Under the pieces are notes generated by a model, which saw only the letters and a program-made list of their open reading frames with translations, did no database searches and was not told the DNA's origin. 64,000 nt of DNA, taken from assembly GCF_030013595.1 (NCBI RefSeq), contig NZ_CP122768.1; one strand, given 5' to 3'. This DNA is from Escherichia coli (GTDB lineage Bacteria > Pseudomonadota > Gammaproteobacteria > Enterobacterales > Enterobacteriaceae). Made by a program: the position numbers and the translations under genes. Below are positions 59,558 through 62,500 of this stretch, piece by piece (position 1 is the stretch's first letter; each line of letters starts with the position of its first letter).

Positions 59558-62500
59558 ATGAACAGGACCAGTCCCTATTATTTTCGCCGCTCAGTACTTT
59601 CCTTATTGATATCTGCCTTAATATATGCCCAGCCCGGGATGGCGGCCTTCACTACTAATGTTATTGGTGTGGTAAACGATGAGACTGTAGATGGCAACCA
59701 ACGAGTAGATGAACGAGGTACAACAAATAACACTCATATTATCAACCATGGCCGGCAGGAGGTCTATGGTGGGATATCTAATAGTAGTATTATTGAAACT
59801 GGTGGCGAGCAACTAGTATCAATCCATGCCGATATTAACGGGCAAGCTAATAATACAACCATTAATGGAGGCAGACAGTCAATTGAGTACGGAGGAATTT
59901 CTACTGGCACGATAATCGAAAGTGGCAATCAATATGTTTATAAAGGTGGTACCAGCAATGACACGACAATTAAGGGCGGTACTTCACGCATAGAGGGGGG
60001 ACTGCAAATGGAACAATCATTGATGGTGGAGGCCAGTCAGTATCAACTCAGGGGCATGTTGACGGTACGACGATAAATAAGTCTGGTTATCAGGACATCA
60101 CGCAAGGAAGTCTGGCGACGAACACAACCATAAATGGTGGGCGACAGTATGTTGAACAGAGCACAGTAGAAACAACCGCCATTAAAAATGGCGGTGAGCA
60201 AAGAGTATATGAGAGCCGTGCGCTGGACACGACGATTGAAGGCGGAACTCAGTCTCTGAATAGTAAGTCAACGGCAAAAAATACGCAGATCTATTCTGGT
60301 GGTACGCAAATTGTTGATAACACGAGCTCCTCGGATGTTATTGAAGTTTATTCCGGCGGCGTGCTTGATGTTAGAGGTGGTACGGCAACTAATATTACTC
60401 AGCACGATGGAGCCGCTTTAAAAGTAACGACTTACGATTTGACGGTGAGCGGTACGAATAGTGAAGGGGCATTCTCCATCCACAATAACGTGGCAGAGAA
60501 TGTGTTGCTGGAAAACGGTGGTCATTTAGACATAAACGCATATGGTTCGGCAAATAAGACGATTATTAAAGATAAAGGAACAATGTCAGTTTTAACGAAT
60601 GCTAAAGCTGATGCGACCCGAATAGATAATGGCGGCGTTATGGATGTTGCCGGAAACGCGACAAATACCATAATTAATGGTGGCACACAGAATATTAATA
60701 ATCATGGTATTGCCACGGGCACCAATATCAACAGTGGAACGCAAAATATCAAGAGCGGCGGGAAAGCTGACACGACAAATATATCCTCTGGGAGCCGGCA
60801 GGTTGTTGAGAAAGATGGTACGGCAACTGGCAGCAATATTAGCGCCGGAGGCTCGCTGATTGTCTATACCGGCGGTATTGCACATGGGGTTAACCAGGAG
60901 ACGGGCAGTGCTTTAGTTGCCAACACGGGCGCAGGGACTGATATCGAAGGATACAACAAGCTCTCTCACTTCACTATTACCGGAGGAGAGGCTAATTATG
61001 TTGTGCTGGAAAATACCGGCGAACTGACGGTAATGGCTAAAACCTCGGCGAAAAATACTACCATTGATGCTGGCGGTAAGCTGATTGTCCAGAAGGAGGC
61101 TAAAACAGATAGCACCAGACTTAATAATGGTGGCGTTCTGGAGGTTCAGGACGGTGGTGAGGCTAAGCATGTTGAGCAACAATCCGGCGGCGCATTAATT
61201 GCTTCCACGACCTCCGGAACACTTATCGAAGGAACCAACAGTTATGGTGATGCTTTCTACATCAGGAATTCAGAAGCTAAAAATGTAGTGCTGGAAAACG
61301 CTGGCTCATTAACAGTCGTCACTGGTTCCCGGGCAATTGACACGATTATTAATGCCAACGGCAAAATGGATGTTTATGGAAAAGATGTTGGTACTGTACT
61401 TAATAGTGCTGGTACCCAAACAATATATGCCAGTGCCACTTCTGAAAAAGCAAATATCAAAGGTGGCAAGCAAATGGTATATGGTTTAGCCACTGAGGCA
61501 AATATCGAAAGTGGTGAACAAATTGTTGATGGTGGGTCAACAGACAAAACGCACATCAATGGCGGTACGCAAACCGTTCAGAATTATGGTAAGGCGATCA
61601 ATACCGATATCGTCTCTGGCCTACAACAAATTATGGTAAACGGGACAGCGGAAGGTTCCATTATTAATGGCGGTTCACAGGTAGTTAATGAGGGCGGTCT
61701 GGCTGAAAACTCGGTGCTTAATGACGGCGGCACTCTCGATGTGCGGGAGAAAGGCAGCGCAACGGGGATACAGCAAAGTAGCCAGGGCGCGTTGGTGGCA
61801 ACCACCAGAGCGACGCGGGTCACAGGGACACGCGCTGATGGCGTCGCGTTCAGCATTGAGCAGGATGCGGCGAACAATATCCTGCTGGCAAATGGCGGCG
61901 TGTTAACCGTGGAGTCAGACACCACTTCCGCCAAAACACAGGTCAATGCGGGCGGGCGGGAGATCGTCAAAACAAAAGCCACTGCGACAGGCACGACGCT
62001 CACCGGCGGCGAACAAATCGTCGAGGGGGTGGCGAATGAGACAACGATTAACGACGGCGGAATACAAACAGTTTCGGCTAACGGTGAGGCAGTAAAAACA
62101 ACGATTAATGAAGGCGGTACGCTGACAGTCAACGATAATGGCAAAGCGACAGATATCATCCAGAACAGCGGTGCCGCTCTCCAGACGAGCACGGCTAACG
62201 GTATTGAAATCAGCGGTACTCACCAGTACGGCACCTTTTCCATTGCCGGAAATTTAGCGACCAATGCGTTGCTGGAAAATGGCGGTAATTTATTGGTATT
62301 AGCAGGTACCGAAGCCCGTGACTCCACGGTTGGCAAGGGTGGTGCAATACAAAACCTGGGTCAGGACTTCGCCACAAAGGTTAATTCTGGTGGACAATAT
62401 ACCCTCGGTCGGTCAAAAGATGAGTTTCAGGCTTTGGCCCGGGCAGAAGATCTACAGATCGCTGGCGGGACGGCAATCGTCTACGCAGGTACGCTGGCGG

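What the first reader, a model, noticed from the sequence alone, without database searches (positions are those of the whole stretch)
59990..60005. Autotransporter adhesin frame broken at a homopolymeric G6 tract
The YpjA-like autotransporter reads cleanly from its signal peptide to ...TIKGGTSRIEGG, and the repeat pattern continues without interruption (TANGTIIDGGGQSV...) in the adjacent frame for another ~1340 codons to the window end. The two frames meet exactly at GGGGGG (59995-60000); one extra G would restore a single ORF. A poly-G tract in the 5' part of an adhesin gene is the classic substrate for slipped-strand phase variation, but it could equally be a fixed pseudogenising mutation or a homopolymer sequencing error.
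Basis: partly seen in the sequence, partly recalled or inferred. Interest (0 to 1): 0.55.

Follow-up and report, generated by a model that had tools for sequence, protein, structure and literature searches.

The report
One-base homopolymer frameshift in ypjA adhesin
The E. coli adhesin gene ypjA is split in this sequence because a run of seven G's reads as six; this is most likely a sequencing/assembly slip or a very recent ordinary loss-of-function mutation, not a programmed on/off switch.

Summary
ypjA/ehaD starts at 59558, leaves its frame at GGGGGG (59995-60000) and continues in the next frame to the window end. One extra G gives the intact 1524-aa gene seen in relatives.

The phase-variation reading is not supported:
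- The in-frame state is G7, short for a contingency tract.
- Among 5,426 complete E. coli genomes, 442 carry exact G7, 11 G6, and none G8 or G5.
- The commoner K-12/O157-type alleles sampled here have an interrupted GGGAGGG.
- One G6 sub-clade arose in a gene already killed by a nonsense codon, and G8 alleles show secondary decay.

In the window's own clade, every draft assembly compared has G7 except one (L033, G6). The exact repaired protein is on record in 31 blocks.

Against its nearest relatives, the window has as many private one-base homopolymer changes as polarised private SNPs:
- ypjA G7 to G6.
- yqaA T8 to T7, which also breaks that gene.
- ypjCB A8 against A7 in the clade.
- Only two private SNPs polarised over about 38 kb.

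That pattern is typical of long-read homopolymer miscalls, as in Nord122.

Best estimates: assembly under-call about 0.55, real recent non-programmed slippage about 0.33, true switch about 0.07. Reads are needed to decide.

The parts
59558..60076 (+). Frame-A ORF: the YpjA N-terminus (signal peptide plus first passenger repeats, 147 authentic residues ending ...TSRIEGG), then 24 out-of-frame codons and a stop
   Evidence: The start matches the PGAP ypjA start in L001. The exact 172-aa product is on record in 115 blocks of public assemblies.
59558..59647 (+). Predicted Sec signal peptide MNRTSPYYFRRSVLSLLISALIYAQPGMAA
   Evidence: Read directly from the translation. This is inference from sequence features, not a predictor run.
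59995..60000 (+). G6 run; G7 in all intact alleles of this allele family. This is the site of the one-base deficit.
59998..64000 (+). Frame-B continuation of ypjA: AIDA/Ag43-like beta-helix passenger, Pro/Asp/Lys-rich linker (about 63095-63200) and most of the C-terminal autotransporter beta-barrel. It runs off the window end.
   Evidence: NCBIfam TIGR01414 barrel matches residues 936-1332 with E=7e-86, plus AIDA/Ag43 repeat hits.
24600..24606 (+). T7 run in yqaA (T8 in nearest relatives). It is the window's only other one-base indel against HCP5S3_I2 and also breaks an ORF.
57515..57522 (+). A8 run in ypjCB. All eight draft assemblies of the window's clade compared here have A7, so this is a third homopolymer discrepancy.

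Best explanation
The strain most probably carries an ordinary, intact ypjA with a G7 run. The G6 in this sequence is most likely a homopolymer under-call left in a long-read-type assembly. The gene is a type Va (AIDA-I-like) autotransporter adhesin. A GGA-to-GGG synonymous difference in this allele family gives GAG GGG GGG ACT, which is the longest homopolymer in the gene. Such runs are where long-read consensus loses a base. Shown: the deficit is exactly one G in a G7 run. All the nearest relatives compared except one draft (L033) have G7 and an intact gene. The window carries further private one-base homopolymer changes and almost no private SNPs. Inferred: that these changes are miscalls rather than mutations.
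For: (1) Across all 64 kb, the window differs from HCP5S3_I2 by 27 SNPs and only two one-base indels. Both are -1 in runs of 7 nt or more, and both break genes that are intact in relatives: ypjA G7 to G6 and yqaA T8 to T7.
(2) Seven draft assemblies of the window's own clade share the clade marker 63022A and are otherwise identical over 6.6-12.4 kb. All have G7.
(3) The exact protein the window would encode with G7 is on record in 31 blocks. The G6-type downstream ORF carrying the clade-specific residues is not on record.
(4) Relative to those clade members the window's private changes are three homopolymer lengths (G6, T7, A8 against A7). Only two private SNPs (22383, 53315) were found over the roughly 38 kb that could be compared. 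That is far more indels than natural mismatch-repair-proficient evolution should give (my estimate).
(5) The same signature occurs in a RefSeq genome. Nord122 against its twin 7/2 shows 6 SNPs and three -1 deletions over 45 kb, at the ypjA G7, the yqaA T8 and an intergenic C7.
(6) Five of the ten longest public contigs that carry the G6 product have 6-13 further indels per 10 kb beyond the haplotype-typical ones, in homopolymers and at CCWGG sites. That is raw-nanopore style.
(7) Uncorrected nanopore errors are mainly homopolymer indels that frameshift genes and inflate pseudogene counts (PMC8011154).
Against: A draft assembly of the same clade (GCA_021649405.1, L033) also has G6, with no SNPs against the window over 9.8 kb. 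Its contig size looks like a short-read draft, where a G7/G6 miscall is unlikely. Real G6 alleles do exist. One is a five-genome sub-clade from three projects. Others are apparently clean haplotype-B and Ch1 assemblies. The window is correct at five other error-prone runs nearby (53633, 54355, 57515, 58491, 59164) and at two other G7 runs. No reads or sequencing platform are known.
Confidence: 0.55

Rival explanations
1. A real, recent, non-programmed -1 replication slippage has inactivated ypjA in this clone. The 172-aa product keeps the signal peptide but lacks the passenger and barrel. The downstream ORF lacks a signal peptide, so no adhesin is displayed. The G7 run is a mutational hot spot in a dispensable, often-lost gene.
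For: G6 occurs on at least four ypjA haplotypes, each with many G7 twins that differ only by the one gap. A five-genome sub-clade from three projects shares G6. Ch1 and UID2309220041 have no other frameshifted gene in 46 kb. The sister draft L033 shares G6. G8 alleles exist in short-read-type drafts and metagenome scaffolds. ypjA is lost in other ways too: a TAG nonsense allele in 54 genomes and a frameshift, position not determined here, in O157:H7.
Against: Seven of the eight clade relatives compared have G7. The window's other private homopolymer changes, including a frameshift of the conserved yqaA (T7 in 11 of 5397 complete genomes), make a purely mutational origin of all three unlikely unless the strain is a mismatch-repair mutator. 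Two of the seven derived SNPs on the window-clade branch are transversions, which gives no clear mutator signature.
Confidence: 0.33
2. The run is a contingency locus. Reversible slipped-strand mispairing toggles G7 (ON) with G6 or G8 (OFF), giving heritable on/off variation of the adhesin under selection.
For: The tract lies in the 5' tenth of a surface-adhesin ORF, and both -1 and +1 lengths abolish the frame. G6, G7 and G8 all occur in nature on one haplotype. G6 appears in shallow, scattered lineages, including two members of the window's clade.
Against: The ON length is only 7. In N. meningitidis it is runs of 8 or more that are predominantly variable (PMC5084427), and E. coli is reported to avoid coding SSRs (PMC3315296). 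97.6% of exact-flank complete genomes are G7, and none are G8 or G5. The tract is absent from K-12, O157 and MRE162 alleles (GGGAGGG), and MS69-1 has an in-frame G6. G6 arose in a sub-clade whose gene already carried TAG. G8 genomes show secondary lesions. In both cases this looks like decay, not switching. No report of ypjA phase variation was found. A neutral intergenic G7 shows the same kind of G6/G7 polymorphism.
Confidence: 0.07
3. G6 is real, but full-length YpjA is still made by recoding. This would be -1 ribosomal frameshifting on G_GGG_GGA, which would give exactly ...IEGGTANG..., or transcriptional slippage on the G run.
For: G GGG GGA in frame A formally fits the X XXY YYZ pattern, and a -1 shift restores the wild-type protein (read).
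Against: There is no stimulatory structure downstream: the 106-nt fold has z = 0.58 and 139 of 200 shuffles fold as well. Homologues are simply in frame with G7, so nothing has selected for recoding. G-only heptamers and 6-nt G runs are poor slippage sites (own knowledge).
Confidence: 0.02

Closest known systems
YpjA/EhaD, AIDA-I-type (type Va) autotransporter adhesin of E. coli
   Same: The locus is the same (ileY, ypjCB, ypjA, then ssrA or an island). PGAP names the homologues ypjA. Identity to allele-family members is 99.9%. The signal peptide, beta-helix repeats and TIGR01414 barrel are all present. The literature places YpjA among the biofilm-forming autotransporter adhesins (PMC9289746).
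   Different: Here the ORF is split by one missing G. The K-12 and O157 alleles are about 90% identical and lack the homopolymer.
Residual homopolymer indel errors in long-read assemblies
   Same: The changes are one-base length changes confined to runs of 7 nt or more. They frameshift genes that are intact in near-identical relatives, and they rival private SNPs in number. The same sites are hit in Nord122 and in raw-nanopore-like contigs (PMC8011154).
   Different: The density is low (2-3 per 64 kb). One change is a +1 relative to the clade. A probable short-read draft shares the G6.
Simple-sequence-repeat contingency loci (e.g. poly-G tracts in Neisseria, Haemophilus and Campylobacter surface genes)
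   Same: A poly-G run early in an adhesin ORF whose length sets the reading frame. G6, G7 and G8 all exist in the species.
   Different: The tract is shorter (7). One length dominates (97.6%). The tract is not conserved among alleles. OFF clades decay. E. coli is mismatch-repair proficient, and its known adhesin switches (fim inversion; Ag43 and pap Dam-dependent) use other mechanisms (own knowledge).
Homopolymer frameshift hot spots that cause irreversible loss, e.g. the mucA G5 run in P. aeruginosa (PMC2781719, seen)
   Same: Recurrent -1 events at a short G run inactivate a gene in independent lineages.
   Different: No selective advantage of ypjA loss is shown here.

Membership tests
SSR contingency locus (slipped-strand phase variation) | A repeat tract inside the ORF or promoter whose length change switches expression | tested here: met
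   G7 gives the 1524-aa ORF. G6 and G8 give 172-aa and 155-aa truncations.
SSR contingency locus (slipped-strand phase variation) | A tract long enough for high-frequency switching (homopolymers of about 8 or more) | tested here: not met
   The ON length is 7. Variable meningococcal tracts are predominantly 8 nt or longer (PMC5084427).
SSR contingency locus (slipped-strand phase variation) | A broad tract-length distribution among close relatives, with ON and OFF both common | tested here: not met
   Among complete genomes, 442 have G7, 11 G6, 0 G8 and 0 G5. In the window's clade, seven drafts have G7 and one has G6. G8 occurs only in the wider collection, in 45 blocks.
SSR contingency locus (slipped-strand phase variation) | The tract is maintained across alleles and orthologues of the gene | tested here: not met
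   K-12, O157:H7 and MRE162 have GGGAGGG. MS69-1 has an in-frame G6. Only this allele family, 7CC and ANT have G7.
SSR contingency locus (slipped-strand phase variation) | Reversible switching and within-culture length heterogeneity | not testable with these tools
   This needs reads or single-colony amplicons. Indirect evidence points the other way, since OFF clades carry secondary lesions.
Type Va autotransporter adhesin YpjA/EhaD | An N-terminal signal peptide, a repeat-rich beta-helix passenger and a C-terminal 12-strand beta-barrel domain | tested here: met
   TIGR01414 matches with E=7e-86 (cut by the window end). There are AIDA-I/Ag43 and TIGR04415 repeat hits. The intact twin is 1524 aa.
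Type Va autotransporter adhesin YpjA/EhaD | Orthologous locus and naming | tested here: met
   PGAP names every full-length match in complete genomes 'adhesin-like autotransporter YpjA/EhaD'. The flanks are the same: ypjCB, tRNA-Ile (CAT) and ssrA.
Assembly homopolymer miscall | A one-base length change in a long homopolymer that breaks an ORF intact in near-identical genomes | tested here: met
Assembly homopolymer miscall | Other private homopolymer indels in the same assembly, in excess over private SNPs | tested here: met
   yqaA T8 to T7 and ypjCB A8 against the clade's A7, compared with 2 private SNPs in about 38 kb.
Assembly homopolymer miscall | Reads or an accurate platform contradict the consensus length | not testable with these tools
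   No reads or platform information are available. The sister draft L033 shares G6, which argues the other way.
-1 programmed ribosomal frameshift | A slippery heptamer plus a downstream stimulatory structure, conserved among homologues | tested here: not met
   The heptamer G GGG GGA is formally present. There is no structure (z = 0.58), and homologues are in frame.

The most novel reading that the evidence does not exclude
In a subset of E. coli lineages, a synonymous GGA-to-GGG change created a G7 run. That run would make ypjA a low-rate, genuinely reversible slipped-strand ON/OFF adhesin locus (G6, G7, G8). It would be a rare SSR-type contingency locus in a mismatch-repair-proficient enterobacterium, perhaps effective mainly in transient mutator backgrounds.
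Probability: 0.07. Interest if true: 0.5.

Novelty: already known. Interest (0 to 1): 0.12.

Why it matters
It matters little biologically. If the G6 is an artefact, the gene is intact and the "pseudogene" should not be counted in adhesin inventories. The same caution applies to the yqaA frameshift in this window. If the G6 is real, it is one more example of the frequent, varied loss of the cryptic adhesin ypjA. One practical point comes out of this. G6 calls at this run in public genomes are a mix of true alleles and long-read miscalls. Presence/absence and pseudogene surveys of ypjA/ehaD should therefore check tract length against read data.

Tried and rejected
- **Control tract.** I probed the intergenic G7 at 43276 as a baseline for G7 to G6 error. 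It turned out to be an old lineage polymorphism (222 exact G6 genomes), so it shows only that such runs vary neutrally.
- **Order of events in the G6 sub-clade.** I assumed the nonsense codon in the five-genome G6 group came after the frameshift. The probe showed the reverse: TAG is in 54 genomes, most of them G7.
- **Methylation-motif and mutator signatures.** I polarised the window's SNPs with outgroups. Seven are derived on the window side, two of them transversions, and no pattern emerged.
- **The sister draft's yqaA.** I tried to reach it through AlaS, GabP and YpjCB look-ups. These returned other clade members instead. That was useful for G7, A7 and T8, but L033's yqaA stayed out of reach.
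- **Recoding.** The fold downstream of the tract is no better than shuffles.
- **Literature.** No paper mentions ypjA/ehaD phase variation, and none mention the accessions of the closest genomes.
- **Not used.** The large protein-homology, structure-prediction and Rfam tools were not needed for this question.

Full report
**1. The observation**

Window 59995-60000 is GGGGGG. The ORF starts at ATG 59558 (MNRTSPYYFRRSVLSLLISALIYAQPGMAA...). It reads ...TIKGGTSRIEGG into the run, then 24 out-of-frame codons, and stops at 60076. From 59998 the adjacent frame reads GTANGTIIDGGGQSV... and stays open for 1334 codons to the window end.

NCBIfam finds the autotransporter beta-barrel domain in the second piece (TIGR01414, E = 7e-86, cut by the window end). 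It finds AIDA-I/Ag43-type repeats in both pieces. In 5,426 complete RefSeq E. coli genomes, PGAP annotates the full-length matches as ypjA, 'adhesin-like autotransporter YpjA/EhaD'.

The best match, pig strain HCP5S3_I2, differs from window 59400-60600 only by one extra G. It has an intact 4575-nt gene.

**2. What the tract looks like across E. coli**

I used 45-nt flanks with G5, G6, G7 or G8 as probes against the complete genomes.
- 768 genomes carry this allele family.
- 442 match the G7 probe at 99% identity or better (a few over 84-90% of it), 11 match G6 exactly, and none match G8 or G5.
- G7 is the longest homopolymer in the gene.

The run is not a conserved feature of ypjA:
- K-12, O157:H7 and MRE162 alleles read GAG GGA GGG AGT.
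- MS69-1 has AGT GGG GGG, an in-frame G6.
- Only this allele family and two related alleles (7CC, ANT) have G7.

A single synonymous GGA/GGG difference accounts for the run.

**3. Who has G6**

PGAP flags all 11 RefSeq G6 genes as frameshifted pseudogenes. They fall on several ypjA haplotypes.

- *Five-genome group.* 675SK2, CRE78, 605, 572 and ECKH-505 share an upstream island and a TGG-to-TAG nonsense codon. That nonsense allele is in 54 genomes, most of them G7. Here the G was lost in a gene that was already dead. It is a real, inherited and evidently neutral slippage.
- *Haplotype B.* Four genomes share this haplotype. At least 26 G7 genomes are identical to it apart from the gap.
- *Ch1 and UID2309220041.* Neither has any other frameshifted gene in 46 kb.
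- *Nord122.* This one differs. Against its twin 7/2 over 45 kb it has 6 SNPs and three one-base deletions. All three are in runs of 7-8 nt: ypjA G7, an intergenic C7 and yqaA T8. That is the signature of residual long-read error.

In the larger public collection the exact 172-aa truncated product is listed in 115 blocks. Of the ten longest contigs:
- five carry 6-13 further indels per 10 kb beyond the haplotype-typical ones, in homopolymers and at CCWGG sites, which is raw-nanopore style;
- four are clean;
- one is discussed in section 4.

G8 (+1) alleles also exist, in 45 blocks. All those inspected are on haplotype B, in short-read-type drafts and metagenome scaffolds. Several carry secondary lesions in ypjA or ypjCB.

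The run is therefore a modest two-way mutational hot spot in a gene that is often lost. O157:H7 ypjA is also annotated as frameshifted, although I did not locate that lesion. The OFF clades look like decaying pseudogenes rather than switch states. A neutral intergenic G7 in the same window (43276) shows comparable G6/G7 polymorphism.

**4. The window itself**

Only two complete genomes are close to it, at 99.9% over 25 kb. The next are at 98.4%.

Across all 64 kb the window differs from HCP5S3_I2 in these ways:
- 27 SNPs;
- an IS3 insertion;
- a tRNA-Arg copy-number difference;
- exactly two one-base indels.

One indel is the ypjA G. The other is T8 to T7 at 24600-24606. It frameshifts yqaA, replacing its last 25 residues. 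T7 there is exact in only 11 of 5,397 complete genomes, Nord122 among them.

Exact-protein look-ups found the window's own clade among draft assemblies. The protein the window would encode with G7 carries the clade-specific residues T369 and S1156. It is on record in 31 blocks, in contigs of 10-200 kb. The corresponding G6-type downstream ORF is not on record.

Seven such drafts are identical to the window over 6.6-12.4 kb apart from three or four differences:
- G7 in place of G6;
- A7 in place of A8 in ypjCB (57515-57522);
- one SNP at 53315;
- in L057 only, one further SNP at 56303.

Clade members that cover yqaA have T8.

The window's private differences over the roughly 38 kb that could be compared are thus three homopolymer lengths and two SNPs (22383, 53315). 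Using textbook E. coli rates, I estimate that natural mismatch-repair-proficient evolution would give about 0.1 homopolymer indels per two SNPs in such a stretch. A mutator would give mostly transitions and a lower indel share. A long-read consensus with residual homopolymer errors explains the pattern directly. The literature describes exactly this: uncorrected nanopore errors are mainly homopolymer indels that frameshift genes (PMC8011154).

The counter-evidence is L033 (GCA_021649405.1), a 104.6-kb draft contig of the same clade. It has G6 and no SNP against the window in 9.8 kb. If that draft is from short reads, real slippage has happened in this clade. It might then be shared with the window. 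That would, however, require a reversal or a miscall at the A run.

**5. Mechanism and rivals**

My best estimate is an assembly under-call, at 0.55.

The second reading, at 0.33, is a real and very recent -1 slippage that simply inactivates the gene. The 172-aa product lacks the passenger and barrel. The downstream ORF lacks a signal peptide.

A selected, reversible contingency switch gets about 0.07:
- the ON tract is 7 nt;
- 97.6% of genomes carry that single length;
- the tract is allele-specific;
- OFF clades decay;
- E. coli is reported to avoid coding SSRs (PMC3315296);
- in N. meningitidis, runs of 8 nt or more are the ones predominantly variable (PMC5084427);
- nothing on ypjA phase variation was found.

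Recoding gets about 0.02. G GGG GGA is formally a -1 slippery heptamer that would restore the wild-type protein. There is no downstream structure (z = 0.58), and there is no conservation of the out-of-frame arrangement.

**6. Comparison and novelty**

The gene is a plain member of YpjA/EhaD. The lesion belongs to two well-known categories: a homopolymer assembly error, or a homopolymer frameshift pseudogene. It resembles a contingency locus only in anatomy, and it fails the tests of tract length, length distribution and tract conservation. Nothing here is new in kind. Interest is low, and reads from the strain would settle the remaining question in minutes.

Noticed in passing
window 24252-24665 (run at 24600-24606): yqaA is frameshifted at a T7 run. 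The nearest relatives and about 99.8% of complete E. coli genomes have T8 and a 142-aa protein. The frameshifted 137-aa product is nevertheless listed in 3294 blocks of the public collection.
   Followed up: yes
window 57168-58622 (run at 57515-57522): ypjCB (DUF5507/5508) is intact with A8 in the window. All eight draft assemblies of the window's own clade that were compared have A7 and a split ORF. The window's exact YpjCB protein is on record in only 3 contigs.
   Followed up: partly
window-equivalent 62675 in L002, L004, L007, L008, L010: A TGG-to-TAG nonsense allele of ypjA is present in 54 complete genomes. O157:H7 ypjA is annotated as frameshifted at a position not determined here. G8 alleles carry extra lesions. 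ypjA is thus inactivated repeatedly and in different ways.
   Followed up: partly
window 43276-43282: An intergenic G7 lies between alaE and stpA. The G6 form is an exact match in 222 complete genomes, so this is an ordinary lineage polymorphism of a G run.
   Followed up: partly
window about 27110-27570, 56115-56122 and 22948-23478: Structural differences from close relatives. An IS200C copy between luxS and emrB is shared with HCP5S3_I2 but absent from Nord122 and 7/2. An IS3 in HCP5S3_I2 is absent from the window. The tRNA-Arg(ACG) array differs in copy number.
   Followed up: no
whole window: All seven G/C homopolymers of 6 nt or more are G runs on the + strand (5742, 43276, 53394, 53633, 59164, 59995, 63552). 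There are no C runs of 6 nt or more.
   Followed up: no
window 58983-59150 and 59374-59493: Between ypjCB and ypjA lie a recombinase-gene remnant and a conserved 39-aa ORF (WP_001120794.1). Both are annotated in every relative examined. This fits an old island junction next to tRNA-Ile(CAT) at 56336-56411.
   Followed up: no
L024, L028-L031 (public contigs): Several public E. coli assemblies carry about one deletion per kb, in homopolymers and at CCWGG (Dcm) sites, across this region. They contribute many spurious G6 ypjA 'alleles' to protein databases.
   Followed up: partly
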